Source: Acidobacteriota bacterium
GTDB taxonomy: Bacteria > Acidobacteriota > Thermoanaerobaculia > UBA5066
Reading direction: 5' to 3'
NCBI GenBank assembly: GCA_029781975.1
Contig: JAKOVQ010000003.1
Coordinates: 188,034 to 252,033, forward strand
DNA length: 64,000 nt
Position 1 is the stretch's first letter. The number at the start of each line of letters is the position of its first letter. The notes beneath the pieces are model-generated. The model was not told where the DNA came from. It saw only the letters and a program-made list of their open reading frames with translations, and did not search any database. A program made the translations under genes and the position numbers. This document shows positions 37,191 to 57,271 of this stretch, one piece after another.

Positions 37191-37238
37191 AAAAATTCTC
37201 CGCCTCTCTTTACGAAACGACCAGATCGGTCCCATATT
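37177..37238 (+). promoter_or_regulatory. AT-rich regulatory island upstream of lrp: palindrome TTTAC-N5-GTAAA and candidate promoter TTTACG-N18-CATATT
   Basis: Palindrome at 37177-37191; TTTACG 37209-37214; CATATT 37233-37238; GACC-N5-GGTC at 37219-37231. Conspicuous A/T run in GC-rich DNA. Confidence 0.55.
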
Positions 37239-37253
37239 GTGGGCGGAGCGACG

Positions 37254-39559: not shown

Positions 39560-42187
39560 ATGCCCGTCGTCCGGTTCACGCTGAACGGCCTCCCGGCCGA
39601 GGCCCGCTTCGAGGAGGGGATGCACTTCCTCGAGGTCCTCCGCGAGGAGTGCGGCGTCACGTCCGCCAAGGACGGCTGCGCCCCGCAGGGGTTCTGCGGC
39701 TGCTGCACGGTCCTCGTCGACGGGCGTCCCGCCCTGGCGTGCCTGGCGAAGCCCGAGAGGATGGAGGGGAAGAGCGTCGTCACGCTCGAGGGGGTCCCGG
39801 AGGCGGAGCGGCAGCTCCTGGCCCGCGCCTTCGTCGCCGAGGGGGCGATCCAGTGCGGCTTCTGCACGCCCGGGATCGTCGTCCGCGGGAGCGCCCTCCT
39901 GGCGGCCGGCACCGCGTCCGACGAGGAGTCGGTCCGCCACGCCCTCTCCGCCCACTTCTGCCGCTGCACGGGCTACAACCGGATCGTCGACGCCGTCACC
40001 GCCGCCGGGGCGGCCCGGGAGGGGAGGCGCGAGCTCCCCCCGCCGGAGGAGGGGCCGTCGCGCCCGGGGGAGTCGGCGCCGCACTACCGCGGCGAGGAGA
40101 TGGCCCTGGGCGCGAAGAAGTACGCGGCCGACCTGACGGCGCCCGGGATGCTCCACGCGGCGTTCGTCCTCTCGCCCCACCCGCGCGCCCTCCTCCGCGG
40201 GATCGACCCCTCCGCGGCCCTCGCCTCCGAGGGCGTCGTCCGGGTCCTGACGGCCGCCGACGTCCCGGGCGAGAGGTTCGTCGGCCTCATCGTCAGGGAC
40301 TGGCCCGTCCTCGTCGCGGTGGGGGAGGAGACGCGCTGCGTCGGGGACGTCGTCGCCGTGGTGGTGGCGGACACCCCGTTCCGCGCGCGGAAGGGGGCCG
40401 CGCTCGTGAAGGTCGACGCCGAGCCGCTCCCCCCGGTGACGAGCCCCGAGGAGGCGCTCGCCGAGGGGGCCCCGGCCCTCCACCCGAAGGGGAACCTCCT
40501 CGAGGTCTGCTCCTTCTCGCGGGGCGACGTCGACGCGGCGCTCGCCGCCTCCGCGCACGTCGTGCGGCGGACCTTCCGGACGCAGCGGATCGAGCACGCC
40601 TTCCTCGAGCCGGAGGCGTGCCTGGCGGTCCCCGCGGACGACGGGACCCTCCACCTCTACTCGCAGGGGCAGGGGGTCCACGACGACCAGCTCCAGGTGG
40701 CGGCCGTCCTCGGCGTGGCGCGCGAGAGGGTCCGCGTCGAGCTCGTCTCCGCCGGGGGCGCGTTCGGCGGGAAGGAGGACCTCTCGGTCCAGGCGCAGAC
40801 GGCCCTCGCCGCCTTCGTCCTGGGGCGGCCGGTGAGGACGGTCCTGACCCGGGACCAGTCGATCCTGCTCCATCCCAAGCGCCACCCGCTCACCCTCGAC
40901 TACACCGTCGGCTGCGACGCCGAGGGGCGGCTGACGGCGGTGAGGGCGCGAATCGTCGGCGACACGGGGGCCTACGCGTCGGTGGGGATGAAGGTCCTCG
41001 AGCGCGCCGCCGGCCACTCGTGCGGCCCGTACCGGGTCCCGAACGTCGACGTCGAGGCACGGACGGTCTACACGAACAACCCGCCGTCGGGCGCGATGCG
41101 CGGCTTCGGCGCCAACCAGGCGTCGTTCGCGATCGAGGGGATGCTGGACGTCCTCGCGGCCGAGGTGGGGCTCGACGGCTACGACATCCGCGAGCGGAAC
41201 GTCCTCGTCCCCGGCGACCGCTTCGCCACCGGCCAGCTGATGGACGAGAGCTGCGGCGTCCTGGCGACGCTCCGGGCGGTGCGCGAGGTCTACAAGGGGG
41301 CCCGCTACGCCGGGATCGCCTGCGGCATCAAGAACACCGGGATCGGGAACGGGATGCAGGACGTCGGCCGCGTCGTCCTGAAGGTCCTCCCCGGCGGGCG
41401 GCTCGAGGTGGTGACCGGCTACACGGAGATGGGGCAGGGGCTCTTCACGGTCCTCCGCCAGGTCGTCTCGGGCGAGACGGGGCTCCCCGTCGGCGCGATG
41501 AACGTGACGACGCGGAGCGACCTCGCCGTCCTCTCGGGGATGACGACCGCCTCGCGCGCGACGGTCCTCGCCTCGACGGCGGCGGCCTTCGCGGCGCGCG
41601 AGCTGGCCGCGGAGCTCCGGGCGGCGCCCCTCTCCGCGCTGGCGGGGCGCGAGTTCGCGGGCGAGTTCGTCTGCGACTTCACGACGAGGCCGGGCGAGGC
41701 GACGGAGAACCCGCGGACCCACATGACGTTCGGGTACGCGACGCAGGTCGTGGTCCTCGGCGACGACGGGCGGCTTGCGCGCGTCGTCGCCGCCCACGAC
41801 GTGGGACGCGCGATGAACCCGCAGCAGTGCGCGGGACAGATCGAAGGAGCGGTCCACATGGGGCTCGGCTACGCGCTCTCGGAGGAGCTGGTGGTGGAGG
41901 GGGGGCGTCCCGTCTCGACGCGGCTCCGCGACCTCGGGATCCTGAAGGCGGCCGACATGCCGCGCGTCGACGTGATCCTCGTCGAGGTGCCCGACCGCGT
42001 CGGCGCCCACGGGGCCAAGGGGGTCGGCGAGATCGGCCTCGTCCCGACGGCGGGGGCCGTCGCGGGGGCGCTCTTCGCGTTCGACGGGAAGCGGCGGACG
42101 GTCCTCCCGATGAGCGACGCGCCGGCGGCGCGCCCCTCGGTCCCGAGGTCGCGAACGGCCCGCGAGGGCGTGGAGGTGAGGGCGTGA
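39560..42187 (+). CDS. xdh: Xanthine dehydrogenase family molybdoenzyme, selenium-dependent type ([2Fe-2S] domains fused to Mo-binding domain; XdhD-like)
   Basis: CAPQGFCGCCTV, QCGFCTPG, CRCTGY; Mo domain motifs EHAFLEPE, GGAFGGKE, AMRGFG, EMGQG, TTASR and the catalytic GAKGVGE. Confidence 0.85.
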   Translation: MPVVRFTLNGLPAEARFEEGMHFLEVLREECGVTSAKDGCAPQGFCGCCTVLVDGRPALACLAKPERMEGKSVVTLEGVPEAERQLLARAFVAEGAIQCGFCTPGIVVRGSALLAAGTASDEESVRHALSAHFCRCTGYNRIVDAVTAAGAAREGRRELPPPEEGPSRPGESAPHYRGEEMALGAKKYAADLTAPGMLHAAFVLSPHPRALLRGIDPSAALASEGVVRVLTAADVPGERFVGLIVRDWPVLVAVGEETRCVGDVVAVVVADTPFRARKGAALVKVDAEPLPPVTSPEEALAEGAPALHPKGNLLEVCSFSRGDVDAALAASAHVVRRTFRTQRIEHAFLEPEACLAVPADDGTLHLYSQGQGVHDDQLQVAAVLGVARERVRVELVSAGGAFGGKEDLSVQAQTALAAFVLGRPVRTVLTRDQSILLHPKRHPLTLDYTVGCDAEGRLTAVRARIVGDTGAYASVGMKVLERAAGHSCGPYRVPNVDVEARTVYTNNPPSGAMRGFGANQASFAIEGMLDVLAAEVGLDGYDIRERNVLVPGDRFATGQLMDESCGVLATLRAVREVYKGARYAGIACGIKNTGIGNGMQDVGRVVLKVLPGGRLEVVTGYTEMGQGLFTVLRQVVSGETGLPVGAMNVTTRSDLAVLSGMTTASRATVLASTAAAFAARELAAELRAAPLSALAGREFAGEFVCDFTTRPGEATENPRTHMTFGYATQVVVLGDDGRLARVVAAHDVGRAMNPQQCAGQIEGAVHMGLGYALSEELVVEGGRPVSTRLRDLGILKAADMPRVDVILVEVPDRVGAHGAKGVGEIGLVPTAGAVAGALFAFDGKRRTVLPMSDAPAARPSVPRSRTAREGVEVRA

Positions 42188-45100: not shown

Positions 45101-47088
45101 GCCTCGACCTGACGGCCGGCACGACGCGCTTCCGCTACCGCGTCAGGACGACGTCCGTCGACACCGGGACCGGCGACGCCACCGGGTGGCTGACCTACGA
45201 CCCGGGAAGGCCCGGCCTCGCGGTCGACGGGACGCTCGACGGGCCGTTCGTCGACGACCGGAACGGGGCGACGGTGACGGGGCGGTACGACATCCCCGCC
45301 CTGACCGCGAACGGCAGCGCCGGGCTCCTCGTCCTCCACCACCACAACCGGACGGGAGAGCGCGCCCAGGTGGTCCGCCTCCGGAACTCGGCTCCCGCGG
45401 TCGTCATCGACCAGCCGGGGGAAGGGGCCGTCCTCGACCCGGGCGCCGCCGTGGCCTTCGCCGGGACGGCCACCGACCCGGACGCCGGGGACACGGTGAC
45501 CTACTCGTGGAGCTTCGGCGACGGCGGGTCCGCCTCCGGCGCCGCCGCGACGCACGCGTACCACGCCCCGGGGACCTACCCCGTCACGCTGACGGCGAGC
45601 GACCTGACGGGGGCCGTCGCGACCGCCTCCGTTACGGTGACGGTCCGCTCCGTCGACGGGCTCGGACCGCAGCTCCTCCTCCCGGTGGTCCTCGACGTCC
45701 ACGGCGGGGGAGGGAGCCACTACACCACCGAGGCGACGCTCTCGTCCCGGGCGGCCGCACCGGTCCCCGTCTTCCTCGTCTACACCGCCTCGCGCGGCAC
45801 CGGGTCGGGGATCGTCCGGGTCGAGCTCGCGCCGGGCGAGACGCGGATCTTCCGCGATGTGATCGCCTTCCTCAGGGAGCAGGGGCTGCCGGTCGTCGAC
45901 GAGGGGGCGGGGATCGTCGGGACCCTTCGCGCGGTCTTCTCCGGGGCCCCGGCCGGCGAGGTCTTCGTCGGAGGCCGGACGTCGACCCCGGGCGGCGGAG
46001 GGACCTTCGGCCTCTTCTACGCCGCGGCCGACGCCACGACGACGACGGCGGTCGTCCCCGGCCTCCAGCAGAACGCGTCGACCCGCTCGAACCTCGCCCT
46101 CGTCAACCTCGGGCCCGACCCGGTCACGCTCCGCGTGGCGCTGGCGGGACCGCTCGGCGAGGAGCTGGGGAGCCTGCCGGACGTCGTCCTCCCCGGCTGG
46201 GGCTGGCAGCAGCTCGACCGGCCGCTCGAGGGGAAGGCCGCGTCCGGGCGCGCGACCGTCACGCGCGTGGCGGGGGGCTCGCCCTTCTCCGCCTACGGCG
46301 TCCTGAACGACGCCGTGACCTCCGACGGCTCCTACCTCCCGCCGGTCCTCCCCGGAGGCACCGGTCCGGCGGACCGGACCATCCCGGTGGTCCTCGACGT
46401 GAGCGGGCTCGGAGGGAGCCACTACACGACCGAGGTGACGCTCGCGAACCTCTCGGCCGCTCCCCTCGACCTGACGCTCGCCTACACGGCGGCCCGGGAC
46501 TTCGGGACCGGCTCGGGGGAGGTGCCGCTGACGCTCGCCGCCGGCGAGCAGCGGGTGATCCCCGCCGTCATCGACTTCCTGAGGGGCCATGGGCTCCAGA
46601 TCCCGGCCGGCGGCGTGAACGTCGCGGGCTCGCTCGCCGTGAAGGCGCCCGCCGGGACGCCGGCGAGCTCCCTTGCGGTGGGCGCGCGGACGTTCACCCC
46701 CGCGGCCTCCGGCGGAGGGACCTTCGGCGTCTACTACCCCGGCCTGACGGCCGAAGAGGCCGCCTCGTCGGCCGCCTGGGTCGAGGGGCTCCAGCAGGAC
46801 GCGGCGACGCGGTCGAACCTGGCGGCCGTTAACCTCGGCGACGGCGGCGACCCGGTGACGCTCCGGTTCCGGTTCTACGACGCCTCGGGGGCGGAGCTTT
46901 CCCCCGTCGAGGAGAAGACCCTGGCGCCGGGCGAATGGCTCCAGCTGAGCCAGCCGCTCGGCTCGCGCGGCGCGACTTCGGGGCGCGTCCACGTCGAGAG
47001 GCTCTCGGGCACCTCGCGCTTCCTCGCCTACGGCGTCCTCAACGACGCCGCGACCTCCGACGGGAGCTACCTCCCGATGACGCGGTGA
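42184..47088 (+). CDS. Large secreted S8 subtilase: I9 prodomain, PA domain, PKD domain and two tandem C-terminal domains
   Basis: GTG overlaps the xdh stop; signal peptide; triad IIDTG / GHGTHVAG / GTSMSSP; PA domain (LVDRGTCSF); PKD (WSFGDG...HAY..PGTY). Confidence 0.9.
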   Translation: MRGRARLLAAPLLALGLAGAAPLGAAPGAALPSGGKVQVLLELDGEPLARVWARTLEARGVAGRPGASARAAAGAAVARQASVLEARQAEVLARATAPAIGGEVIYAVERAYNGIALRVDAEKLASLRAIPGVRAVRPLVLHVPDNAVSVPFIGVPTGAWQAFGVTGKGIRIGIIDTGVDYLHGDFGGSGSAADYQANDRTKAPDAYFPTARVVGGWDFAGDDYDGNGAPKPDPDPMDCNGHGTHVAGIAAGQGVTSGGAAFRGPWDASVPFADLAIGPGAAPEASLYALRVFGCGGSTALTIQAIDWAIDPNGDKDFSDHLDVVNMSLGSPGGATDDATSEAADAAGAAGVIVVASAGNEGDTAFVSGSPGASARAISVAASTARGAAVRVTAPQGAAGLYPAGDALFGPRIPADGLAGPVVATVPADACSAVTNGAALAGKLALVDRGTCSFVQKVKAAQDAGATGVVVVNNTTAAPEIITMAGSDPSVTIPSAFVRQGDGATMKAALGNGLSAALLTAGDTLASFSSRGPVRGPGGPYPKPDVTAPGQSIVSALSGITAGSAGIQVNAGSQSTTLSGTSMSSPLVAGVMALLRQRHPGWSVAELKALVMSTASHDTSPLPPGGSPPVYGPSRVGAGRVDAAEAASGEVIAFSEADPVRVGLLFQVEPSEPLAVSKAITVVNKGSSAVTLDPSFVQAAPLPGVTLELLPADRFTLGPGERRSLEVKLSVPDPRAVPHPLDPTMSATQSSAVAPSSRSWASEASGWAVLTGAPSGTLRVPVHAYVRGASSMRAAPSLGIVGDGAGTFSLPLSGSDLAVEAAPPAAVTSTASAFELAPTTPTDGTGPTAIRYVGVASDVPAKGVADGRVFFAVATKAPWTTPGEVEVKVEVDRDGDGKVDAVVRSMDTGSLTNLVEPGSDASPTDVFVAFTAHDSPAFVQGTSRYLNLDPLVRDTALDFSDVVVLPAPAGGTGLDLTAGTTRFRYRVRTTSVDTGTGDATGWLTYDPGRPGLAVDGTLDGPFVDDRNGATVTGRYDIPALTANGSAGLLVLHHHNRTGERAQVVRLRNSAPAVVIDQPGEGAVLDPGAAVAFAGTATDPDAGDTVTYSWSFGDGGSASGAAATHAYHAPGTYPVTLTASDLTGAVATASVTVTVRSVDGLGPQLLLPVVLDVHGGGGSHYTTEATLSSRAAAPVPVFLVYTASRGTGSGIVRVELAPGETRIFRDVIAFLREQGLPVVDEGAGIVGTLRAVFSGAPAGEVFVGGRTSTPGGGGTFGLFYAAADATTTTAVVPGLQQNASTRSNLALVNLGPDPVTLRVALAGPLGEELGSLPDVVLPGWGWQQLDRPLEGKAASGRATVTRVAGGSPFSAYGVLNDAVTSDGSYLPPVLPGGTGPADRTIPVVLDVSGLGGSHYTTEVTLANLSAAPLDLTLAYTAARDFGTGSGEVPLTLAAGEQRVIPAVIDFLRGHGLQIPAGGVNVAGSLAVKAPAGTPASSLAVGARTFTPAASGGGTFGVYYPGLTAEEAASSAAWVEGLQQDAATRSNLAAVNLGDGGDPVTLRFRFYDASGAELSPVEEKTLAPGEWLQLSQPLGSRGATSGRVHVERLSGTSRFLAYGVLNDAATSDGSYLPMTR
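45673..47085 (+). repeat. Tandem duplication of a ~230-aa domain at the S8 C-terminus
   Basis: Copy 1 ~45673-46345 and copy 2 ~46378-47085. Both begin PVVLDVxGxGGSHYTTE and end AYGVLNDAxTSDGSYLP, and share GGTFG and GLQQxAxTRSNLAxVNLG. Confidence 0.85.
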
Positions 47089-48626: not shown

Positions 48627-50555
48627 ATGGTGGGCCTCGTCCCGGTCCCGTTTGCCGTGCTGCTCCGGCGGCTCGCCGCCGAGGGGCGCCGGGGCGGTTC
48701 CGTCTACGGCCTCCCGGCCACCTCGTGGTGGGTCCCGGCCCCGGGCCTCGACCTCTCCGCGACGCTGCCTGGCGGGCCGGCCGCCACCCCCGTCGGTCCC
48801 GCCGACGGACCGCAGACGCAGCTCGCCGCGAACGTCGTCGTGGCCTGGCTCGCCGGGGGGCGCGTGGTCGAGCTGCGGACGGTCGAGGAAGGGGCACGGA
48901 GCCCCGCCGCGGCCCGGACGATCCACGCGGCAGGCGCCGTCCTGAGGACCGAAGGGGGGGCGGGGCTGGAGCCCGAGGCGGCCCTCCGCGAGTACGCGAA
49001 GGCCGCCTGCCTCGTCGAGGTCCTGAGGGCGACGCGGGCCTTCGGGAGGCTCGACGCCTCGGCGCTCGACACCCTTTTCGACGCCGGCGTCCGCGGAGAC
49101 CTCGAGGGGATCTCCTCCCCCGCCGTTCAGGGCTTCCTCGACGGCCTGGCCGACCCCACGGCGCTCTACGACGAGCTGCGGGAGGAGGTCCCCGACGACC
49201 TCGCCGCGTGGCGCGACCTCTCGCCCCCCGTTCCGCTCGCCTCGTCGATCACCTTCGAGCCGTCGCGGGGCTGTCCCGGGGACGAGGTGGAGCCGGTGCT
49301 CCGCCACCTGATGACGCGCGGGCTCGCGGTGTGGCTGAAGCTCTCCCCGGCGCTCCTGGGCCGCGAGGCGGTGGAGGAGCTCCTGCACCGGCGGCTCGGC
49401 TACCGGCAGCTGGCGCTCCTCCCGGACGCGTTCGACGACGGCCTCGCGTGGGACGAGACGGTTCCGCTGATCGAGCGGCTGAGGGAGACCTCGCGCGCGA
49501 CCGGCGTCCCGTTCGGGGTCAAGCTCGCCCGTCCGCTCCCGGTCCGCCGGGACCCCGCCCTCTTCCCGTCCGCCACCGGGACGGCGCTGGAGCTGTCGGG
49601 GCCGCCGCTCCACCTCCTCGCCCTGGCCCTTCTCGAGAGGCTCCGCGCGGCCGTCGGGCCCGACCTCCCCGTCTCCTTCTCCGCCGGAGCCGACGCGGGG
49701 AACCTCGCTGACACGCTCGCCTGCGGCGTCGCGCCCGTGACGCTCGGCGAGGATCTCCTGAAGCCGGGGGGCGCGGGGCGCCTCGCCCTCGCCCTCCGCG
49801 CGCTGGAGGCGGCGATGTCCGCCGCCGGTGCCCGCACCCTCCCGGAGCTCCTCCGCGCGGCGCCGCGGGACGCCGGCGCGTTCGCCGCGGCGGTGGCGGC
49901 CTCTCCCCGTTACCGGGCCGCGGCGGCCGGCGGCGCGCCCGGGGAGGAGGCGGCTTCGCTCCCCGTCCACGACTGCTCCGGCTGCGACGTCTGCCTCTCG
50001 GTCTGCCCGAACGCGGCCTTCTTCACCTACCGCTCGGAGCCCGTCGAGGTCGTGACCGTCCTGGCGACGGCCGCCCCCGGAGGCCGCGTGACCCTGGGGC
50101 CCGGCCGGGGCTTCGTCATTCGCGGCTCCGAGCAGACGGCCGTCGTGGCGGACCTCTGCGACGACTGCGGCAGCTGCGTCCCGTTCTGCCCGGAGGAGGG
50201 GGAGCCCCAGCACGTGAAGGAGCGGGTCTTCCTCGGCCTGGGCGCGTGGGAGGCGCTCCCCCCGCGCGACGGCTACCTCCGCGAGGGGAACGGGCTGCGC
50301 GCCCGGCTCCGCGGCGTCGAGCTCCGCTTCGTCCCCGACCCCGCGAACGACCGGGCCGTCGTGAGCGGCGGCGGCCTCGAGCTCCTCTTCACCCTCTCGG
50401 GCCTCGAGCTCCTTGAGGCCCGCTCCGGCCGTCCGGGCGCCTCTTTCGACACGGCGGACGCGTGGCTGATGCGGATGGTCTGGCGCGGGCTCCTCGAGTC
50501 GGAGGCCCCGAGCTGGGTCGACCCCGACCCGGCCCGGGCGGAGGTGCGGGTGTGA
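48627..50555 (+). CDS. YgfK N-terminal-like (DHOD-like barrel) + 2x[4Fe-4S] protein; active-site motifs degenerate
   Basis: TPVGPADGPQTQL, GCPGDEVE, KLSPALLG, GVKL, SGPPLH, DLLKPGG scaffold; ferredoxin motifs CSGCDVCLSVCP and CDDCGSCVPFCP. Confidence 0.75.
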   Translation: MVGLVPVPFAVLLRRLAAEGRRGGSVYGLPATSWWVPAPGLDLSATLPGGPAATPVGPADGPQTQLAANVVVAWLAGGRVVELRTVEEGARSPAAARTIHAAGAVLRTEGGAGLEPEAALREYAKAACLVEVLRATRAFGRLDASALDTLFDAGVRGDLEGISSPAVQGFLDGLADPTALYDELREEVPDDLAAWRDLSPPVPLASSITFEPSRGCPGDEVEPVLRHLMTRGLAVWLKLSPALLGREAVEELLHRRLGYRQLALLPDAFDDGLAWDETVPLIERLRETSRATGVPFGVKLARPLPVRRDPALFPSATGTALELSGPPLHLLALALLERLRAAVGPDLPVSFSAGADAGNLADTLACGVAPVTLGEDLLKPGGAGRLALALRALEAAMSAAGARTLPELLRAAPRDAGAFAAAVAASPRYRAAAAGGAPGEEAASLPVHDCSGCDVCLSVCPNAAFFTYRSEPVEVVTVLATAAPGGRVTLGPGRGFVIRGSEQTAVVADLCDDCGSCVPFCPEEGEPQHVKERVFLGLGAWEALPPRDGYLREGNGLRARLRGVELRFVPDPANDRAVVSGGGLELLFTLSGLELLEARSGRPGASFDTADAWLMRMVWRGLLESEAPSWVDPDPARAEVRV

Positions 50556-51952
50556 GGACGCGGTTCGTCAACCTCCGCCTCCCCGCGGGAGGCGACGCGA
50601 CCGCGCCCTCCGAGCTCCTCGTCGAGGGGCCGCTCTTCTCCCGGATCGGCCGCGCGGGGGAGATCCCCGCGCCGGAAGGGACGGTGACGGTCGACCTGGG
50701 AGGCGCCCTCGTCCTGCCGGGCGTGATCGACGGGCACGTCCACTTCGACGACCCCGGCTTCACGCACCGCGAGACGTTCGCCACCGGGACGCGCGCGGCC
50801 GCGGCCGGCGGGGTGACGTGCGTCGTCGACATGCCGTGCACGTCGCTCCCGCCGGTGACGAGCGCGGAGCGCCTCGCCGGCAAGCTCGCGGCGGTCGCGC
50901 CGAAGGCGCACGTCGACTACATGATGTGGGGCGGCGTCTCGGGCAACGCCGTCGCGGAGGGGGACTGGCGGCGCGACGTGGCCGGGCTCGCCGGCGCGGG
51001 CGTCGCCGCGTTCAAGCTCTACATGCTCTCGGGGATGGAGACGTTCCGCGACCTGACGCCGGAGGAGCTCCGCGAGGCGCTCGCGGCCGCCGCCGCGGCC
51101 GGGGTGCCGGCCGGCGTCCACGCCGAGGCGAAGGGAGAGGTGCTCGAGAGGACGGAGCGCCTCCGCGACGGGGGGCACGACGGCCCGCTCGCCTACGCCG
51201 ACTCCCGCCCCGCCGCCGTCGAGGTCTCGGCCGTGAAGCTCCTCGCGTCCCTGGCGCGGGAGACCGGCGCGCGGGCGCACGTCGTCCACGTGGCGGCCGG
51301 CGACGCGCTCGACGCCGTGGCCGAGGCCCGCCGCTCGGGCGTGGCCCTCTCGGCCGAGACGTGCCCCCACTACCTCGCCTTCACGCGCGACGACCTCGAG
51401 GCGCAGGGGTCGGTCCTGAAGACGGCGCCCGTCGTGAAGGGGGCCGCCGACCGCGACCGGCTCTGGCGCGGCCTCGCGAGCGGCGACGTCCAGCACGTGG
51501 CCACCGACCACGCCGCCGGGGAGTGGCCGCGCGAGAAGACGACCGGGTCGATCTGGACCGACTACGGGGGCGTCCCCGGCGTGGAGCTGCTCCTCCCGTT
51601 CCTCTTCTCGGAGGGAGTGGGGAAGGGACGGGTCACGCTGGAGCGCCTCACCGAGCTCCTCTCGGCGGCCCCGGCCCGCTTCTTCGGCGTGGCGTCGCGG
51701 AAGGGGCGGATCGCCGAGGGGCTCGACGCCGACTTCACCGTCCTCGACGACGGGGCGGCCTTCACGGTCCGCGCGGAGGAGCTCCACAACCTGAACCGGT
51801 ACACCCCGTTCGAGGGGTGGAGCCTCACCGGACGCGTGCGGCAGACCTGGGTGCGCGGGACGAGGGTCTTCGCGCGGGCGGACGACGGGAGCGAGAGCTT
51901 CGGTCCCGCAGGGGGGGGCCGCTTCGTCAGGCGGCAGGAGCCGACGGGATGA
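50552..51952 (+). CDS. Allantoinase/dihydropyrimidinase-family cyclic amidohydrolase
   Basis: GTG overlaps the previous stop; IDGHVHFDDPG, AGGVTCVVDMP, FKLYM, VHAE, HVVH, ETCPHYL, ATDHA, GRIAEGLDADF. Confidence 0.88.
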   Translation: MRTRFVNLRLPAGGDATAPSELLVEGPLFSRIGRAGEIPAPEGTVTVDLGGALVLPGVIDGHVHFDDPGFTHRETFATGTRAAAAGGVTCVVDMPCTSLPPVTSAERLAGKLAAVAPKAHVDYMMWGGVSGNAVAEGDWRRDVAGLAGAGVAAFKLYMLSGMETFRDLTPEELREALAAAAAAGVPAGVHAEAKGEVLERTERLRDGGHDGPLAYADSRPAAVEVSAVKLLASLARETGARAHVVHVAAGDALDAVAEARRSGVALSAETCPHYLAFTRDDLEAQGSVLKTAPVVKGAADRDRLWRGLASGDVQHVATDHAAGEWPREKTTGSIWTDYGGVPGVELLLPFLFSEGVGKGRVTLERLTELLSAAPARFFGVASRKGRIAEGLDADFTVLDDGAAFTVRAEELHNLNRYTPFEGWSLTGRVRQTWVRGTRVFARADDGSESFGPAGGGRFVRRQEPTG

Positions 51953-53310
51953 TCCAGAAGAGGACGCTGATCGGGAACGGGACGGTCGTCACGGGCGGGG
52001 CGCGCCCGCAGATCGTGCCGCAGGGGGCGGTGCTGATCTCGGGCGGCCGCGTCGAGGCCGTCGGGGAGATGGAGGCGCTGGAAGGACGCGCGCGGGACGC
52101 CTGGCTCCTCGACGCCCGCGGCGGCCTCATCCTGCCGGGCTTCGTCAACCTCCACCACCACTTCTACTCGGCGCTGGCCCGCGGGCTCGACCCGGGGTTC
52201 CGCCCGTCGGGGTTCGCCGACGTCCTCCGCCAGCTCTGGTGGAGGCTCGACCGGGCGCTCGACCGGGACTCCGTCCGCCTCTCGGCGCTCCTGACCCTCG
52301 CCGACTGCATCCGGTGGGGCTGCACGACGGTCTTCGACCACCACGCCTCGCCCTCCTGCATCCCCGGCATCCTCGACGTCCTCGCCGGCGCGGTGGAGGA
52401 GGCCGGCCTCTCGGCCGTCCTCTGCTACGAGGTGACCGACCGGAACGGCGCCGCCGCCGCGCGCGCGGGGCTCGAGGAGAACCTCCGCTTCCTCTCGGGG
52501 CGGGACGCCGGGCGGGTCCGCGGGGCCCTCGGCCTCCACGCCAGCTTCACGCTCCGCGACGAGACGCTGGCGGAGGCGGGGCGCCGCCGCCCCGCGGGCG
52601 CCGCGTGTCACGTCCACGTGGCCGAGGACCCCGTCGACGTCGCCTTCTCCGTCGAGACCTTCGGCGCCGGGCCGATCGCGCGGCTCGACCGCGCGGGGCT
52701 CCTCGACGAACGGACGATCGTCGCGCACGGCATCCACCTCCCCGAGGCCGAGCTCGACCTCGCCATCCGCCGCGGGGCGGTCCTCGTCCACAACCCCGAG
52801 TCGAACATGAACAACGGCGTGGGGCGGTTCGACCCGCTCGCGGCCGCCGAGCGCGGCGCCACCATCGGCCTCGGGACCGACGGGATGTCCTCCTCGATGC
52901 TCCGGGCCCTGCGGGCGGCCTTCCTCGCCCTGCGCGACGGGCGCCGCGACCCGGGGGCCGGCTTCACCGTCCTCCCCGGCCTCCTCCTGTCGAACGCCCT
53001 CCTCGCCCGCCGCCTCCTCGACGAGCCCCACCTGGGCGAGCTCGTCCCCGGCGCTCCGGCGGACGTCGCGGTCGTCGACGCACCGCCGCCGACCCCGCTC
53101 ACCGTCGCGAACCTCTTCGGGCACCTCGTCTACGGCGCCGCCGAGGCACCCGTCCGCCACACCGTCGCCCGCGGCGTCGTCCTCATGGAGAACTTCCAGC
53201 TCACCACGCTCGACCCCGCCGCGCTCGCCGCCGAGGCGCGACGGACGGCGCCCGACGTCTGGAGGCGCTTCGCCGCCCTCGACGCCCGGACCCCGTTCGT
53301 CGCCCCCTGA
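51949..53310 (+). CDS. ssnA: SsnA-type aminohydrolase
   Basis: LPGFVNLHHHFYSALARG, LWWRLDRALD, GCTTVFDHHAS, HNPESNMNNGVG, LGTDG. Confidence 0.85.
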   Translation: MIQKRTLIGNGTVVTGGARPQIVPQGAVLISGGRVEAVGEMEALEGRARDAWLLDARGGLILPGFVNLHHHFYSALARGLDPGFRPSGFADVLRQLWWRLDRALDRDSVRLSALLTLADCIRWGCTTVFDHHASPSCIPGILDVLAGAVEEAGLSAVLCYEVTDRNGAAAARAGLEENLRFLSGRDAGRVRGALGLHASFTLRDETLAEAGRRRPAGAACHVHVAEDPVDVAFSVETFGAGPIARLDRAGLLDERTIVAHGIHLPEAELDLAIRRGAVLVHNPESNMNNGVGRFDPLAAAERGATIGLGTDGMSSSMLRALRAAFLALRDGRRDPGAGFTVLPGLLLSNALLARRLLDEPHLGELVPGAPADVAVVDAPPPTPLTVANLFGHLVYGAAEAPVRHTVARGVVLMENFQLTTLDPAALAAEARRTAPDVWRRFAALDARTPFVAP

Positions 53311-53350: not shown

Positions 53351-54838
53351 GTGACCGACCCGAACCGAGACGCCGTCCGCAGCCGCGCCGTCGCGCGCTG
53401 CCGCCAGAAGGGAATCCTGATCCCGCGGATCGCCGAGCAGCGCGACCCGTCGCTCGTCGACCCGGCCGTGGCCGCGCTCCTCCCGGGAGTCGACATGCAG
53501 GCCGTCGACCCGCTCAACCTCTTCCGGATCACCTGGCACAACGACCCCGCGACGGGCGGGTTCGGGCCGGTCGACGCCCTCGAGCTCCCGTCCGCGCTCA
53601 CCGGGGTCCCGGCCCGGATCGCCGGCCTCGTCGGGAAGCACTTCCCGACCGGGGCGCACAAGGTGGGGGCGGCGTTCGGCTGCCTCGTCCCGCGGCTCGT
53701 CAGCGGGGAGTTCGACCCGACCTCGCAGAAGGCGGTCTGGCCGTCGACGGGGAACTACTGCCGCGGGGGGGCGTTCGACAGCGCGCTCCTCGGCTGCACC
53801 GCGCTGGCCATCCTCCCGGAGGAGATGAGCCGGGAGCGGTTCGACTGGCTCGCCTCGATCGGCGCCGAGATCCTCGCGACCCCCGGCTGCGAGAGCAACG
53901 TGAAGGAGATCTTCGACGCCTGCTGGGACATCAAGAAGACGCGGAAGGACTGCGTCGTCTTCAACCAGTTCGAGGAGTGGGGGAACTACCTCTGGCACTG
54001 GTCGGTCACGGCCGCCGCTGCCGAGGAGGCGTTCGGCCGGCTCCCGGGGGAGCACAAGCGCTTCGCGGCCTGGGTCGGCGCGACGGGGTCGGCCGGGACC
54101 CTCGCGGCCGGGGACGGCCTGAAGCAACGCTTCGCGGGCCTGACCGTCACCGCGGCCGAGGCGCTCCAGTGCCCCACGCTCCTCCTCAACGGCTTCGGCG
54201 GCCACCGGATCGAGGGGATCGGCGACAAGCACGTCCCCTGGATCCACAACGCCAGGAGCACCGACCTCGTGACGGCGGTCGACGACGAGGCGGCCCTCCG
54301 CGTCTTCCGCCTCTTCAACGAGCCCGCGGGGCAGGCGGTGCTCGCACGGCGCGGCGTCGCGCCCGAGGTCGTCGAGCGGCTGCCGCTCCTCGGGATCTCG
54401 AGCGTCTGTAACGTCCTGGCGGCGATCCGGACCGCCCGCTGGTACGAGCTGGGGAGCGAGGACGTCCTCCTCACCTCGTTCACCGACTCCTCGTCGCTCT
54501 ACCTGACCCGCCTGGCCGAGATGACGAAGGAGCGGGGCCCGCTGTCCGAGGCGCGGGCCGAGGCCGACTTCGACCGGTTCCTCCTCGGCTGCTCCCCCGC
54601 CGACACGCGCGAGCTGACCTACCCCGACCGCAAGGCGATCCACAACCTGAAGTACTTCACCTGGGTCGAGCAGCAGGGGAGGACCGTGGACGAGCTGAAC
54701 GCCCTCTGGTCCCCCTCGTTCTGGACCGACCTGCAGCAGCAGCTCCCCGAGTGGGACCGCGCCATCGACGCCTTCAACGCGGAGAGCGGCGCGCTCGAGA
54801 TCGTGAAGCTCCGCGCGGCCGTCGCGGCCGGCGCGTGA
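53351..54838 (+). CDS. Uncharacterised fold-type II PLP-dependent enzyme (495 aa)
   Basis: FPTGAHKVG (PLP Lys), PSTGNYCRG, GSAGTL phosphate loop, HRIEGIGDKH. Confidence 0.8.
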   Translation: MTDPNRDAVRSRAVARCRQKGILIPRIAEQRDPSLVDPAVAALLPGVDMQAVDPLNLFRITWHNDPATGGFGPVDALELPSALTGVPARIAGLVGKHFPTGAHKVGAAFGCLVPRLVSGEFDPTSQKAVWPSTGNYCRGGAFDSALLGCTALAILPEEMSRERFDWLASIGAEILATPGCESNVKEIFDACWDIKKTRKDCVVFNQFEEWGNYLWHWSVTAAAAEEAFGRLPGEHKRFAAWVGATGSAGTLAAGDGLKQRFAGLTVTAAEALQCPTLLLNGFGGHRIEGIGDKHVPWIHNARSTDLVTAVDDEAALRVFRLFNEPAGQAVLARRGVAPEVVERLPLLGISSVCNVLAAIRTARWYELGSEDVLLTSFTDSSSLYLTRLAEMTKERGPLSEARAEADFDRFLLGCSPADTRELTYPDRKAIHNLKYFTWVEQQGRTVDELNALWSPSFWTDLQQQLPEWDRAIDAFNAESGALEIVKLRAAVAAGA

Positions 54839-54864
54839 GAGGCGAGACGAGGAGAGGAGACGAG

Positions 54865-56109
54865 ATGACGACGACGACCGGGACGGCGGCGAAGACCTCG
54901 GGAGCCGAGGCCCTCGCGGCCGCGCGCCTCCACCAGGACGACATCGTGAGGTTCCTCCGCGACCTGATCGCGATCCCCGCCGAGAGCGGGAAGGAGCGGG
55001 CTCGCTGCCACCGGGTGAAGGACGAGTACGACAGGCTCGGCCTCGACGAGACCTGGTTCGACGGCCTCGGGACGGTGGTCGCGCGCGTGGGGAACGGTCC
55101 CCTGAAGGTCCTGATGGACGGCCACATCGACTGCGTCGGCATCGGGGACCCGGCCTCCTGGGCGTTCGACCCGTTCGAGGGGAAGCTGGAGGACGGGAAG
55201 GTCTTCGGGAGGGGAGCCGTCGACGAGCTCCCCGCCATCGCCTGCATGGCGTACGGCGCGAAGCTCCTCAAGGAGAGGGGCGTCCCGCCCGAGCTGACGG
55301 TCTACCTCTCGGCGTCCGTCCTCGAGGAGGACCTCGACGGCCACTGCCTCCTCCACCTGATCGGGAAGGAGGGTCTCCGCCCCGACGCCGTCGTCCTGGG
55401 CGAGCCGACCGGCCTCGACGTCTACCGCGGGCACCGCGGCCGGATGGAGATGACCATCACGACCCGGGGGGTGGCGGCCCACGGCGCCCACGCGCAGCGG
55501 GGCGTGAACGCCCTCTACAAGGCGGCGCCGATCATCCTCGACGTCGAGAGGCTGAACGGCACGCTCCGGACCGACCCGTTCCTCGGGAAGGGGTCGATCA
55601 TCGTCTCGTACGTCGACGTGAAGACCCCCTCGATGTGCGCCGTCCCCGACCGGGCGACGATCTACCTGGACCGGCGCCTCACCGCGGGCGAGACGATCGA
55701 GACGGCCCTCGCGGAGGTGAAGGCCCTTCCGCACCTCGGCGACGCCGAGGTGGCCGTCCGGTCGTACGAGGGGACTGCCTGGACCGGGAAGAAGGTCGAG
55801 CAGGAGGCCTACTACCCGACCTGGGTCCTCCCCGAGGAGCACCCGCTCGTCCGGGGGACCGTCCAGGCCGTGGAGGCCGTCCTCGGGAGGAAGCCGAAGG
55901 TCTCCCGCTGGCACTTCTCGACGAACGGCGTCGCGTCGATGGGGCGCCTCGGCATCCCGTCGATCGGCTTCGCGCCGGGGCTCGAGGAGCTCTCCCACTC
56001 GACGGACGAGTGGGTCGCCGTCGACGACCTGGTGAAGGCGACAGCCGTCTACTCCCTCCTCCCCGAGACCCTCGCCGTCCTCGCCTCCGAGCTGAAGGCG
56101 AAGGGCTGA
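54865..56109 (+). CDS. ygeY: YgeY-family M20 hydrolase
   Basis: LMDGHIDCVG, GRGAVDE, SVLEED, GEPT, YRGHRGR, STNGV, GFAPGLEELSH. Confidence 0.85.
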   Translation: MTTTTGTAAKTSGAEALAAARLHQDDIVRFLRDLIAIPAESGKERARCHRVKDEYDRLGLDETWFDGLGTVVARVGNGPLKVLMDGHIDCVGIGDPASWAFDPFEGKLEDGKVFGRGAVDELPAIACMAYGAKLLKERGVPPELTVYLSASVLEEDLDGHCLLHLIGKEGLRPDAVVLGEPTGLDVYRGHRGRMEMTITTRGVAAHGAHAQRGVNALYKAAPIILDVERLNGTLRTDPFLGKGSIIVSYVDVKTPSMCAVPDRATIYLDRRLTAGETIETALAEVKALPHLGDAEVAVRSYEGTAWTGKKVEQEAYYPTWVLPEEHPLVRGTVQAVEAVLGRKPKVSRWHFSTNGVASMGRLGIPSIGFAPGLEELSHSTDEWVAVDDLVKATAVYSLLPETLAVLASELKAKG

Positions 56110-56131: not shown

Positions 56132-57271
56132 ATGCAGACCTCCTCCCTCGAACGGCCCGTCCTCGAGCCCGCCGTCCTCGACCGCCTCTTCGGGCGGAGC
56201 CTCCTCCTGACCGACGACTACGACCAGACGGAGCTCGGGGCGCTCCTCGCCGTCGCGGCCCGCCTCGCGGCGCTCGACCGGGCCGGGACGAAGACCCCGT
56301 TCCTGCCCCACGAGCTCGCCTACGCCCTCTTCTTCGACAACTCGACGCGGACGAAGTCCGCCTGGGCCGGCGCCGCCGCCCGGCTCGGCATGCAGCCCGT
56401 CATCGTCGACGGCTCCTCGACGCAGATCGCCCACGGCGAGACGGCCGTCGAGACCGGCGCGATGCTCGGGATGAACGCCCACGCCCTCGGGGTCCGCCAC
56501 GACCTGATCCTCGGCGAGGGGAACTCCTTCATGCGCGACGTCAGGAAGGGGATCGACGACTACCTCGCGGCGACGGGCGACCCCCGGAAGGTCCCGATCG
56601 TCAACCTCCAGTGCGACGTCGACCACCCGACGCAGACGCTCGCCGACCTCTGCTGGCTCCTGGAGCGGTTCCCGGAGGGGCTCTCGGGGAAGCGGATCGC
56701 GATGTCGTGGGCCTACTCGCCCAGCTACGCCAAGCCCCTCTCCGTCCCGCAGGGGATCGCCATGCTGATGACCCGCTTCGGGGCGCACGTCACGCTGGCT
56801 CACCCCGACGGGTACTCTCTGATGGAGCCGTGCCTCGCGTCGGCGGCGCGGCACGCCGCCGAGTCGGGGGGCTCGTTCCGCGTCGTCGACTCGATGGACG
56901 AGGCCTTCCGCGACGCCGACGTCGTCTACCCCAAGAGCTGGGGGCCATACGACCTGATGCTCGAGCGCGTCGCCGCGAACCGGGCCCGCGACGCGAAGGC
57001 GATGGGGGAGATCGAGCGCCGCGCCCTCGAGCGGAACGCCCGGCACCGCGACTGGATCTGCGACGAGCGGCGGATGGCGCTGACGAAGGGGGGCGACGCC
57101 CTCTACATGCACTGCCTGCCGGCGGACATCGGAGCCGAGGTGTCGCCCGGCGTCATGGCGCGCCACACCGTGAACGTCGCCCGCGAGGCGAGCTGGAAGG
57201 TCCACGTGATCATGGCGCTCCTGGCGACGGCGAAGGTGCCGAACCTGGCGGAGAAGCTCGCGGCGGCGTGA
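56132..57271 (+). CDS. ygeW: YgeW-family knotted carbamoyltransferase
   Basis: FFDNSTRT, STQIAHGET, HPTQTLAD, SWAYSPSYAKPLSVPQG (YgeW signature), PKSW, MHCLPAD. Confidence 0.88.
   Translation: MQTSSLERPVLEPAVLDRLFGRSLLLTDDYDQTELGALLAVAARLAALDRAGTKTPFLPHELAYALFFDNSTRTKSAWAGAAARLGMQPVIVDGSSTQIAHGETAVETGAMLGMNAHALGVRHDLILGEGNSFMRDVRKGIDDYLAATGDPRKVPIVNLQCDVDHPTQTLADLCWLLERFPEGLSGKRIAMSWAYSPSYAKPLSVPQGIAMLMTRFGAHVTLAHPDGYSLMEPCLASAARHAAESGGSFRVVDSMDEAFRDADVVYPKSWGPYDLMLERVAANRARDAKAMGEIERRALERNARHRDWICDERRMALTKGGDALYMHCLPADIGAEVSPGVMARHTVNVAREASWKVHVIMALLATAKVPNLAEKLAAA

What the first reader, a model, noticed from the sequence alone, without database searches (positions are those of the whole stretch)
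48627..50555. YgfK-like protein looks like a pseudo-enzyme: scaffold kept, flavin/substrate residues replaced
Compared with the family consensus as I recall it (GPAAGPHTQ, ELKTVQ, GYNVEWSQEL, TLSTFHGCPPDEIE, KLNPTLLG, KxSNTL, MYxSG, VCTDLLKPGGY), this protein reads GPADGPQTQ, ELRTVE, VLRTEGGAGL, TFEPSRGCPGDEVE, KLSPALLG, KLARPL, LELSG and LGEDLLKPGGA. The polar residues equivalent to the DHOD FMN/substrate ligands change systematically, while both [4Fe-4S] motifs and the reading frame stay intact. The GltD-like FAD/NAD module is also absent. It may be a non-catalytic electron-transfer or structural partner, or have shifted substrate, implying a different reductive step.
Basis: partly seen in the sequence, partly recalled or inferred. 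Interest (0 to 1): 0.65.

Follow-up and report, generated by a model that had tools for sequence, protein, structure and literature searches.

The report
YgfK-like reductase with dismantled active site
A gene in an otherwise intact anaerobic uric-acid breakdown cluster encodes a reductase relative that has lost nearly all its substrate-pocket residues but is still kept by natural selection, so it is probably a repurposed iron-sulfur protein and not a dying gene.

Summary
Window 48627-50555 (+) encodes a 642-aa short-form relative of YgfK, the 2,8-dioxopurine reductase: a DHOD-like TIM barrel, two intact CxxCxxCxxxCP motifs and a C-terminal domain, with no GltD module. Every quoted motif is present.

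Of 87 columns at least 90% conserved in canonical relatives, 27 differ, 26 of them in the barrel. These include K84R, N107R, S211E, T212P, H214R, N302R and T303P.

- The Gly loops, K238, K299 and all eight cluster cysteines are kept, so cofactor loss is not shown.
- Lacking the GltD module is normal for about half the family.
- The gene is not decaying. Against about 92%-identical soil-metagenome contigs, dN/dS is 0.16 (SsnA next door: 0.08).
- Its stop codon overlaps the start of the next gene.
- The same genome carries a canonical full-length YgfK at another locus.
- The same set of columns was lost independently in at least four other lineages.

Best reading: a selected pseudo-reductase retained as an Fe-S (possibly flavin) electron-transfer or scaffold partner. 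A remodelled reductase with a different substrate is the main rival. The role is inferred, not shown.

The parts
48627..50555 (+). Short-form YgfK-like gene, 642 aa (P0002), with the substrate-pocket module lost
   Evidence: ORF, translation and codon-position GC. TIGR03315 E 5.8e-69 but only 232.6 bits, model positions 5-452. AF2 model pLDDT 92.4, pTM 0.93. dN/dS 0.16.
48627..49826 (+). N-terminal DHOD/DPD-like TIM barrel (about residues 1-400) carrying 26 of the 27 changed conserved columns
   Evidence: Foldseek hits to DHODH, DHODB and DPD: E 2.5e-9, prob 1.0, TMt 0.6-0.7. Column statistics.
48876..48887 (+). R84-T-V-E87 in place of K-T-V-Q (strand 2 lysine, matched to DPD K574 / DHODA K43 from memory)
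   Evidence: Unchanged in the soil relative.
48939..48968 (+). V105-L114, VLRTEGGAGL in place of GYNVEWSQEL. N107R, W110G, S111G, Q112A and E113G are changed; E109 is kept.
   Evidence: N107 is changed in all 7 other degenerate representatives. The soil relative reads VLRTEGGGGL.
49251..49277 (+). T209-P217, TFEPSRGCP in place of TLSTFHGCP. S211E, T212P and H214R are changed; G215-C216-P217 are kept.
   Evidence: No amino-acid change in the soil relative.
49338..49346 (+). K238-L-S240. The invariant lysine is kept (matched to DHODA K164 / DPD K709 from memory); N240S is changed.
   Evidence: K238 is invariant in all 119 sequences.
49521..49550 (+). K299-R308, KLARPLPVRR in place of KLTNTLxVxN (N302R, T303P, N308R)
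   Evidence: The soil relative reads RLASPL here (K299R, R302S), so the positions still drift.
49590..49601 (+). E322-L-S-G325. Y322E is changed; the S-G loop is kept.
   Evidence: hhalign aligns LSG to GGLSG of the genome's own PyrD. G325 is invariant.
49674..49688 (+). S350-F-S-A-G354 loop, kept
   Evidence: hhalign aligns it to GIGGI of PyrD. G354 is invariant.
49746..49775 (+). G374-E-D-L-L-K-P-G-G-A383 in place of CTDLLKPGGY. D376, L378 and G382 are kept.
49974..50009 (+). First [4Fe-4S] motif, C450 S G C D V C L S V C P461
50157..50192 (+). Second [4Fe-4S] motif, C511 D D C G S C V P F C P522
   Evidence: Contigs covering residues 503-588 and 617-642 (which include this motif) show 3 non-synonymous against 11 synonymous differences.
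50232..50552 (+). C-terminal beta-rich domain shared with short and long YgfK forms; function unknown
   Evidence: AF2 model strands 549-608 with pLDDT above 90. Aligned in the family.
50540..50555 (+). GGAGG (50540-50544), 7 nt, then GTG 50552 overlapping the TGA stop: translational coupling to the next gene
   Evidence: Read directly from the sequence.
50552..51952 (+). Cyclic amidohydrolase (allantoinase/hydantoinase type, HyuA position) with catalytic residues intact
   Evidence: TIGR03178 371.6 bits, above the 357.85 cut-off. DGHVH, FKL, HAE, HVVH and TDHA are present.
51949..53310 (+). SsnA amidohydrolase with metal ligands intact
   Evidence: NF005540 435.9 bits, TIGR03314 412.8 bits. 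Motifs read. dN/dS 0.08.
53351..54838 (+). Fold-type II PLP enzyme in the YgeX position; not a YgeX orthologue
54751..56109 (+). YgeY-family M20 hydrolase
   Evidence: NF009555 451.8 bits, above the 321 cut-off.
56132..57271 (+). YgeW-like knotted carbamoyltransferase (divergent subfamily)
   Evidence: NF005538 379.6 bits, below the 453 cut-off. 82% identical to the G019 orthologue.
39560..42187 (+). Fused Fe-S/MoCo xanthine-dehydrogenase homologue (Se-dependent XDH type, with no FAD subunit)
   Evidence: TIGR03311 919 bits, above the 830 cut-off.

Best explanation
The gene encodes a maintained, probably expressed member of the short-form (GltD-less) branch of the YgfK / 2,8-dioxopurine reductase family.

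Its substrate-binding and catalytic module has been dismantled. These are the Asn, Thr, Ser and His residues at the C-terminal ends of the barrel strands. Its fold, the FMN-anchoring Gly loops and lysines, both [4Fe-4S] clusters and the C-terminal domain remain under purifying selection.

It most likely no longer reduces 2,8-dioxopurine by the canonical mechanism. In this genome that step can be supplied by an intact full-length YgfK encoded elsewhere (contig C15).

The short protein is then retained in the operon as a redox or structural partner. It would be an Fe-S (perhaps still flavin-bearing) electron-transfer or scaffold subunit. Possible partners are the cluster's cofactor-dependent enzymes: the NAD(P)H-independent Se-type XDH, the long YgfK, or the SsnA/HyuA hydrolases.

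Shown: the residue replacements, the retained core, purifying selection, translational coupling, the canonical paralogue, and recurrent independent loss of the same columns. Inferred: loss of the canonical activity, retention of the cofactors, and the partner role.
For: 1. Pocket loss. 26 of 71 barrel columns that are at least 90% conserved are changed, including K84R, N107R, S211E, T212P, H214R, N240S, N302R, T303P, N308R and Y322E. The barrel has the DHOD/DPD FMN fold. Published modelling places the substrate-reducing FMN site in this part of YgfK (bioRxiv 10.1101/2025.05.19.654654).

2. Core kept. G57, P62, G77, E82, L83, K238, G325, G354 and L378 are invariant. K299, T85, N359, G382 and R385 are kept, as are all eight cluster cysteines. 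The three Gly loops align to the DHOD phosphate loops.

3. Selection. Against about 92%-identical soil-metagenome contigs there are 95 differences, split 16/11/68 by codon position. Sd is 64 and Nd is 30, giving dN/dS 0.16 over 386 codons. The neighbouring SsnA gives 0.08. The degenerate motifs are retained in the relative. In a substitution-only drift simulation to 28% replacement, the ORF stays open in only 2-14 of 300 runs.

4. The columns lost here are the ones lost in seven other degenerate representatives (58% against 17%, p=2e-21). With those columns removed, the protein nests at 98% SH-aLRT among canonical proteins (P0032-P0034). The degenerate state then needs at least 4 origins.

5. 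The replacements go mostly to R, G, A, P, E and D, away from N, K, Y, S and T. Positions 112 and 302 still vary between close relatives. This is what released constraint under GC pressure would give, not a newly fixed pocket.

6. Redundancy. This is the only one of 61 related genomes with both a long canonical form and a short form.

7. The rest of the cluster is healthy, and the gene's stop overlaps the next gene's RBS-preceded start.
Against: There is no biochemical evidence.

The residue equivalences to DPD/DHOD ligands for strands 1-6 rest on motif similarity, strand positions in the model and my memory of DPD numbering. They do not come from a computed residue-level structural alignment; hhalign covered only the last three loops.

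G215-C216-P217, E109 and K238 are kept, so a changed chemistry is possible. The in-operon position next to HyuA and SsnA is what one would expect of the working reductase.

The long paralogue sits in an unrelated neighbourhood (ppk, GGDEF-EAL, pst), and its role in urate catabolism here is assumed.

The dN/dS rests on short, low-depth contigs from at least two haplotypes covering 60% of the gene. No partner interaction was tested. A60D, P97R and G156R hit positions that even the other degenerate members keep; these could affect flavin binding.
Confidence: 0.5

Rival explanations
1. It is still an active flavin/Fe-S reductase whose pocket has been rebuilt, now rich in Arg, Glu and Gly. It would then act on a different, probably anionic, purine- or ureide-derived substrate. 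Alternatively it binds 2,8-dioxopurine through different residues and takes electrons from an external ferredoxin.
For: - Purifying selection, dN/dS 0.16.
- The FMN-anchoring core, K238 and the G-C216-P loop are kept.
- It is translationally coupled to the ring-opening amidohydrolases.
- The cluster differs from the canonical one: an allantoinase-type amidohydrolase, a non-YgeX PLP enzyme and a divergent YgeW. A shifted substrate is therefore conceivable.
- No other reductase gene lies in the cluster.
Against: - All three pocket Asn residues plus Thr, Ser and His are gone at once.
- The replacements follow GC pressure, and positions 302 and 112 differ again in a 92%-identical relative. That argues against a newly optimised pocket.
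- The other lineages that lost the same columns show no common replacement motif, and those whose context was looked up lie outside purine clusters.
- The adjacent SsnA is a near-canonical type A SsnA (436 bits), the kind that pairs with long canonical YgfK in relatives.
Confidence: 0.3
2. It still performs the canonical 2,8-dioxopurine reduction. On this reading the conserved residues are dispensable.
For: Its operon position matches that of canonical short forms next to SsnA or an amidohydrolase. The fold is predicted with high confidence.
Against: These columns are 91-100% conserved in 111 canonical homologues, and 26 of the 71 barrel ones are changed. The TIGR03315 score is 233 bits, against 401 bits for the canonical short form of a related genus. 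From my recollection of the DHOD/DPD literature, single Asn substitutions at the equivalent positions cost orders of magnitude in activity.
Confidence: 0.08
3. It is a functionless relic. The gene was made redundant by the long paralogue and is decaying, or is only carried along because downstream genes need its translation.
For: A canonical paralogue is present. The terminal branch is long (1.2 against a median of 0.44). dN is about three times that of SsnA. Pocket positions still drift.
Against: dN/dS is 0.16, with 72% of differences at third codon positions. There are no stops or frameshifts, although drift to this degree would usually create them. Fe-S motifs and core columns are fully kept. 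The contigs covering residues 503-588 and 617-642, which include the second cluster motif and the C-terminal domain, show 3 non-synonymous against 11 synonymous changes.
Confidence: 0.07

Closest known systems
E. coli YgfK (DOPOR), NADPH:2,8-dioxopurine oxidoreductase (bioRxiv 10.1101/2025.04.24.650524; 10.1101/2025.05.19.654654)
   Same: The N-terminal barrel is homologous (TIGR03315 model positions 5-452, E 5.8e-69). It has the same ferredoxin-type 2x[4Fe-4S] and C-terminal domains. It sits in a cluster with SsnA, a hydantoinase-type amidohydrolase, YgeY, a YgeW-like protein and an XDH homologue.
   Different: There is no GltD-like FAD/NADPH module. It scores 233 bits against a cut-off of 835. 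26 of 71 conserved barrel columns are changed, including the putative substrate ligands. Activity is unknown.
Canonical short-form YgfK of environmental bacteria (uncharacterised; for example in related Thermoanaerobaculia MAGs, loci L029, L011, L017, L021, and P0032-P0034)
   Same: The domain architecture and length are the same. It is 40-50% identical and adjacent to an SsnA-type amidohydrolase. With the module columns removed it nests inside this group (98% SH-aLRT).
   Different: Those proteins keep GPAAGPHTQ, ELKTVQ, NVEWSQEL, TLSTFHGCP, KLNPTLLG, KLTNTL, YLSG and CTDLL. The window protein does not.
Clostridial UacX / PydAc-type reductases (FMN + Fe-S, no FAD domain)
   Same: They are precedents for a ring reductase in this pathway that lacks an NAD(P)H module and needs an external low-potential donor.
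   Different: UacX belongs to PF01180 and is a different branch of the DHOD superfamily. It has an intact pocket and shown activity with methyl viologen.
Pig dihydropyrimidine dehydrogenase FMN domain and class 1 DHODs (PDB 1gte, 1ep3, 1d3g)
   Same: The TIM-barrel fold is the same (Foldseek prob 1.0). The Gly-rich phosphate loops and the strand-5 lysine are equivalent.
   Different: Sequence identity is only 12-18%. The Pfam DHO_dh model does not match. The Asn/Thr ligands and the strand-2 Lys are replaced.
Other degenerate YgfK-family members (P0063, P0129, P0078, P0047, P0066, P0178, P0127), and an earlier AI note on catalytically dead urate-cluster paralogues in Hadarchaeota (e1-3380830)
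   Same: The same set of columns is lost, while the core and the Fe-S cysteines are kept.
   Different: Those losses arose independently. The four whose context was looked up (P0047, P0063, P0066, P0129) lie outside purine clusters. The window gene sits inside an intact cluster and keeps the G-C-P loop.

Membership tests
YgfK / DOPOR (NCBIfam TIGR03315 Se_ygfK) | Whole-protein score above the curated cut-off (835.3 bits) | tested here: not met
   232.6 bits, model positions 5-452 of 1012 only. The genome's long paralogue scores 814.8 bits.
YgfK / DOPOR (NCBIfam TIGR03315 Se_ygfK) | N-terminal DHOD-like barrel homologous to YgfK residues 1-450 | tested here: met
   E 5.8e-69. 325 library representatives at E up to 1e-30. 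DHOD/DPD fold in the model.
YgfK / DOPOR (NCBIfam TIGR03315 Se_ygfK) | GltD-like FAD/NADPH module between the barrel and the ferredoxin domain | tested here: not met
   No Pyr_redox or Fer4_20 hit. The long-form insert is absent in the alignment.
YgfK / DOPOR (NCBIfam TIGR03315 Se_ygfK) | Conserved pocket residues: N107, E109-W-S-Q-E, S211, T212, H214, N240, N302, T303, N308, Y322 (window numbering) | tested here: not met
   All of the listed positions are replaced except E109.
YgfK / DOPOR (NCBIfam TIGR03315 Se_ygfK) | Two CxxCxxCxxxCP motifs and the C-terminal domain | tested here: met
YgfK / DOPOR (NCBIfam TIGR03315 Se_ygfK) | Genomic linkage to SsnA and the other urate-pathway genes | tested here: met
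   SsnA lies 1.4 kb downstream in the same orientation. HyuA-type, YgeY, YgeW-like and XDH genes are in the window.
YgfK / DOPOR (NCBIfam TIGR03315 Se_ygfK) | NAD(P)H-dependent reduction of 2,8-dioxopurine | not testable with these tools
   This needs an anaerobic enzyme assay coupled to SsnA, as in the two 2025 preprints.
Short-form (GltD-less) YgfK subfamily (uncharacterised) | Architecture of barrel + 2x[4Fe-4S] + C-terminal domain, 590-790 aa, placed in the short-form clade | tested here: met
DHO_dh superfamily FMN domain (Pfam PF01180) | Match to the Pfam model | tested here: not met
   No PF01180 hit at E up to 1. Only fold-level similarity and partial profile similarity.
DHO_dh superfamily FMN domain (Pfam PF01180) | FMN phosphate-binding Gly loops and the strand-5 Lys | tested here: met
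   LSG325, SAG354, PGG382 and K238 are kept. The Gly loops are aligned by hhalign to the genome's own PyrD.
DHO_dh superfamily FMN domain (Pfam PF01180) | Bound FMN | not testable with these tools
   This needs the flavin content of the purified protein.
Pseudogene (neutral decay) | Frameshifts or stops, dN/dS near 1, loss of codon-position bias | tested here: not met
   The ORF is intact. GC3 is 0.92. dN/dS is 0.16, with 68 of 95 differences at third positions. The drift simulation gives the same answer.

The most novel reading that the evidence does not exclude
DOPOR/YgfK-family reductases have repeatedly given rise to selected pseudo-reductases. [quoted passage not shown] In this cluster, such a protein would be the dedicated low-potential electron conduit for the NAD(P)H-independent, Se-type xanthine-dehydrogenase homologue that makes 2,8-dioxopurine. 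The physiological electron donor of that enzyme is still unknown in Clostridia. Alternatively it could be a heterodimer partner of the full-length YgfK.
Probability: 0.2. Interest if true: 0.7.

Novelty: new variant of a known kind. Interest (0 to 1): 0.5.

Why it matters
YgfK's function was solved only in 2025, and only for the long, NADPH-linked E. coli enzyme. The short, ferredoxin-type forms that dominate environmental genomes are unstudied. About 7% of family representatives have lost the whole substrate pocket, and the one tested here remains under purifying selection.

This window gives a clean natural experiment. An intact urate-type operon carries a pocket-less copy in the reductase position, while a canonical copy sits elsewhere in the genome.

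If the pocket-less protein is an electron-transfer or scaffold subunit, it would be a new pseudoenzyme class among Fe-S flavoproteins. It might also identify the missing electron donor of the first pathway step.

Practically, homology-based calls of 'urate-degrading' genomes that count any YgfK hit would be misled by such copies.

Tried and rejected
- **Neutral decay.** Rejected by dN/dS 0.16 and the third-position bias, by the drift simulation, and by full retention of the core and Fe-S columns.
- **One ancient degenerate subfamily with P0066 and P0129.** The first tree grouped them at 97% SH-aLRT. The grouping vanished when the 36 module columns were dropped and the Fe-S and C-terminal columns were added. 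The protein then nests with canonical P0032-P0034 at 98%, and it is only 34-35% identical to P0066 and P0129. I read the first grouping as convergent loss or long-branch attraction.
- **An alternative reductase in the cluster or genome.** I looked for a UacX/PF01180 type and, among the ORFs scanned near the cluster, an F420 type. The only extra PF01180 protein is a PFOR-linked DHOD-like protein 40 kb outside the window. No reductase domain is in the ORFs scanned near the cluster.
- **The neighbouring amidohydrolases are dead too.** Rejected; their metal ligands are intact.
- **Residue-level mapping to solved structures by sequence.** phmmer and hmmsearch against the PDB gave only ferredoxin hits and weak DHOD/DPD hits (E 0.008-0.26). 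hhalign to the genome's own PyrD aligned only the last three loops.
- **Riboswitch or other RNA family, sigma-70 promoter, terminator near the gene.** None found.
- **Orthologues in GTDB relatives for dN/dS.** None is closer than 43%, and none in the 5.8-billion-protein search is closer than 46%. Metagenome contigs had to be used instead.
- **Organism names from cluster look-ups.** None returned.
Full report
**What is there**

The window is 75% G+C. It belongs to a 5.4-Mb metagenome-assembled genome; an anaerobic-digester run holds 100% of the gene's sampled words.

Codon-position G+C picks out one real gene at the reported place, ATG 48627 to TGA 50555, 642 aa, with GC3 0.92. Pfam sees only a 4Fe-4S dicluster domain. 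NCBIfam TIGR03315 (YgfK) matches residues 5-461 of the ATG-48627 protein (23-479 of P0001) to model positions 5-452 of 1012. The E-value is 5.8e-69, but the score is 232.6 bits against a cut-off of 835.

**Context**

The gene lies in a look-alike of the reductive uric-acid (2,8-dioxopurine) cluster solved in 2025. The neighbours are:
- a fused Se-type XDH homologue, 39560-42187 (919 bits, above cut-off);
- a cyclic amidohydrolase, 50552-51952 (allantoinase model, above cut-off);
- SsnA, 51949-53310 (436 bits);
- a non-YgeX PLP enzyme, 53351-54838;
- YgeY, 54751-56109;
- a YgeW-like carbamoyltransferase, 56132-57271.

A 1,600-aa secreted subtilase-like gene and a PG-binding gene separate the XDH from the rest. 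The two amidohydrolases keep their metal ligands.

The YgfK-like stop codon overlaps a GTG start that is preceded by GGAGG. The gene is therefore translationally coupled to the operon.

**Checking the observation**

The recalled consensus equals the consensus of 119 aligned homologues drawn from an exhaustive HMMER search.

With the conserved set defined on all 118 other rows (82 columns at least 90% conserved), the window protein differs at 23, or 28%. The family median is 1.2%. With the set defined on the 111 canonical rows (87 columns), it differs at 26 of 71 barrel columns but at only 1 of 16 Fe-S-domain columns (p=0.018). Both CxxCxxCxxxCP motifs are complete.

The AlphaFold model is confident (pLDDT 92.4, pTM 0.93). 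Its N-terminal domain matches DHODH, DHODB and pig DPD barrels with probability 1.0. The conserved family residues sit at the C-terminal ends of the strands, which is where this fold binds FMN and substrate.

hhalign against the genome's own PyrD aligns LSG, SFSAG and CTDLL with the three FMN-phosphate loops. The equivalences for strands 1-6 rest on motif similarity and my memory of DPD/DHOD numbering. For example, ELKTVQ would match DPD ALTKTF, NVEWSQE would match NIELISE, KLNP would match KLTP, and TNTL would match TNTV. These were not computed at residue level.

**What is lost and what is kept**

Changed: A60D, K84R, Q87E, D90A, P97R, C98T, N107R, W110G, S111G, Q112A, E113G, S154G, G156R, Y157G, S211E, T212P, H214R, N240S, T242A, N302R, T303P, N308R, Y322E, Y383A.

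Kept: G57, P62, G77, E82, L83, T85, E109, T209, G215-C216-P217, K238, P241, K299, S324-G325, G354, N359, D376, L378, G382, R385, and all the cysteines.

The pocket-lining polar residues are gone. The positions that anchor the cofactor in DHOD-type enzymes are intact. Flavin loss is not shown.

The missing GltD module is not part of the degeneration. About 67 of the 119 aligned family members are short forms, nearly all with canonical motifs. They include those of related Thermoanaerobaculia, where the order is XDH, PLP enzyme, SsnA, short YgfK, YgeW.

**Not unique, but independent**

Seven other representatives are as degenerate (16-24 of 82 columns). Five are short forms and two are long forms. 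The columns changed in the window protein are the ones changed in these seven (58% against 17% at the unchanged columns, p=2e-21). Each lineage has different replacement residues.

A first tree joined the window protein to two of them. When the 36 module columns were dropped and the Fe-S and C-terminal columns added, it moved into a 98%-supported clade of canonical proteins (P0032-P0034). The degenerate state then needs at least four origins among the short forms.

The four other degenerate short forms whose contexts I looked up (P0047, P0063, P0066, P0129) lie in unrelated neighbourhoods. The nearest canonical relative, P0034, is followed by an amidohydrolase.

**Selection**

No orthologue closer than 46% exists in the protein collections or in 60 related genomes. 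A soil metagenome (run X3), however, holds short contigs 89-96% identical to the gene. One of them runs on into the downstream amidohydrolase. Three other metagenomes hold identical or near-identical pieces, with 0-1 differences.

I compiled the listed differences for eight contig segments covering 386 codons. There are 95 differences, split 16/11/68 by codon position. Nei-Gojobori counts give Sd 64, Nd 30, dS 0.23, dN 0.037 and dN/dS 0.16. The same run gives dN/dS 0.08 for SsnA.

The degenerate motifs are the same in the relative, apart from A112G, K299R and R302S. The loss therefore predates that split, and at least two pocket positions still drift.

A substitution-only drift simulation to 28% replacement leaves the ORF open in 2-14 of 300 runs.

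So is the other, that the catalytic residues are conserved. The third, that the variants are common in active homologues, cannot be judged because no degenerate member has been assayed.

**The intact paralogue**

The genome has a full-length YgfK at C15:438784-442140 (1,118 aa, 815 bits) with every canonical motif and the GltD module. It lies among ppk, GGDEF-EAL and pst genes.

Among 61 related genomes, this is the only one with both a long and a short form. In sister genera the long form sits inside a canonical cluster. In G010 that cluster holds a YgeY-like gene, long YgfK, PbuX, D-hydantoinase, YgeW, SsnA, carbamate kinase, YgeX and XDH. The window's SsnA is of the type that goes with those long forms (413-436 bits). 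The SsnAs next to canonical short forms score only 300-320 bits.

The closest named relatives that share the PLP-YgeY-YgeW gene block (plus a 66%-identical HyuA-type gene in L047) have no YgfK barrel gene within 10 kb. They do have a GltD-like gene there. The cluster is thus a mosaic, and redundancy with the long paralogue is a plausible cause of the relaxed pocket.

**Reading**

The protein is a selected, cofactor-scaffold-retaining but pocket-less YgfK relative.

I put about 0.5 on a non-catalytic redox or scaffold role. The Fe-S clusters, and possibly FMN, would pass electrons or hold a complex with the XDH, the long YgfK or the hydrolases. The replacements follow GC pressure and are not fixed between close relatives. 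The same module is discarded as a unit in other lineages without a shared new motif.

I put about 0.3 on a remodelled active reductase, about 0.08 on unchanged canonical activity and about 0.07 on a functionless relic. The partner role is inference; nothing here tests an interaction.

**Comparison and novelty**

The protein works, or worked, like YgfK/DOPOR, but it fails the family's score cut-off, its domain set and its pocket residues. It is best filed as a pocket-less variant of the uncharacterised short-form branch.

The two 2025 preprints that I read for YgfK, found by a keyword search that returned 13 papers, mention neither short forms nor degenerate forms. Earlier AI notes of this scan describe ferredoxin-linked environmental clusters and one archaeal block of 'dead' paralogues. 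I treat those as leads only.

Noticed in passing
G000 contig C15:438784-442140 (outside the window; locus L001 1489-4845): A full-length canonical YgfK (1,118 aa, 815 bits, all motifs, GltD module) lies alone among ppk, a GGDEF-EAL gene and pst genes. In sister genera the orthologous long form sits inside a complete urate cluster.
   Followed up: partly
window 42190-47088 (+): A secreted subtilase-like protein of about 1,630 aa with PA/PKD-like parts and a duplicated C-terminal domain of about 230 aa. It is inserted between the XDH gene and the rest of the urate-type cluster. Its true frame is hidden inside a 2,479-codon ORF.
   Followed up: partly
window 53351-54838 (+): A fold-type II PLP enzyme (weak CysK-like hits only) stands where YgeX would be. 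70-75% identical orthologues sit in the same PLP-YgeY-YgeW block in two Acidobacteriota MAGs (L047, L054), and L047 also has a 66%-identical HyuA-type gene beside it.
   Followed up: partly
window 56132-57271 (+); loci L047-L126: This YgeW-like carbamoyltransferase scores below the YgeW cut-off (380 against 453 bits). It nevertheless has 66-84% identical relatives in MAGs labelled as many phyla (Acidobacteriota, Eisenbacteria, Myxococcota, Actinomycetota, Planctomycetota, Gemmatimonadota). This is a widespread divergent subfamily.
   Followed up: partly
loci L047 (15800-16627) and L054 (7117-5915): The closest named relatives of the PLP-YgeY-YgeW block have no YgfK barrel gene within 10 kb but do carry a GltD-like gene. 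This suggests yet another reductase arrangement.
   Followed up: no
window 35550-37190 (+): The C-terminal half of this ORF passes the class A beta-lactamase model (208 bits, cut-off 200). It follows an N-terminal extension of about 240 aa, and the ORF overlaps a ResA-like thiol-disulfide oxidoreductase ORF on the other strand.
   Followed up: no
window 49578-49648 in run X3: Two contigs of the soil metagenome overlap here and disagree at several sites. At least two strains related to this gene therefore coexist in that sample.
   Followed up: no
G000 contig C27:147931-148551 (about 40 kb before the window; locus L043): A 'dihydroorotate dehydrogenase-like protein' (PRK07565, 446 bits) lies directly beside a pyruvate:ferredoxin oxidoreductase gene. 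It is unrelated to the urate cluster.
   Followed up: partly
window 38787-39404 (-) and 37191-37757 (+): A CxxCxxCC (putative Zn/Fe-chelating) protein and an Lrp/AsnC-type regulator lie just upstream of the XDH gene. The regulator is a possible regulator of the cluster.
   Followed up: no
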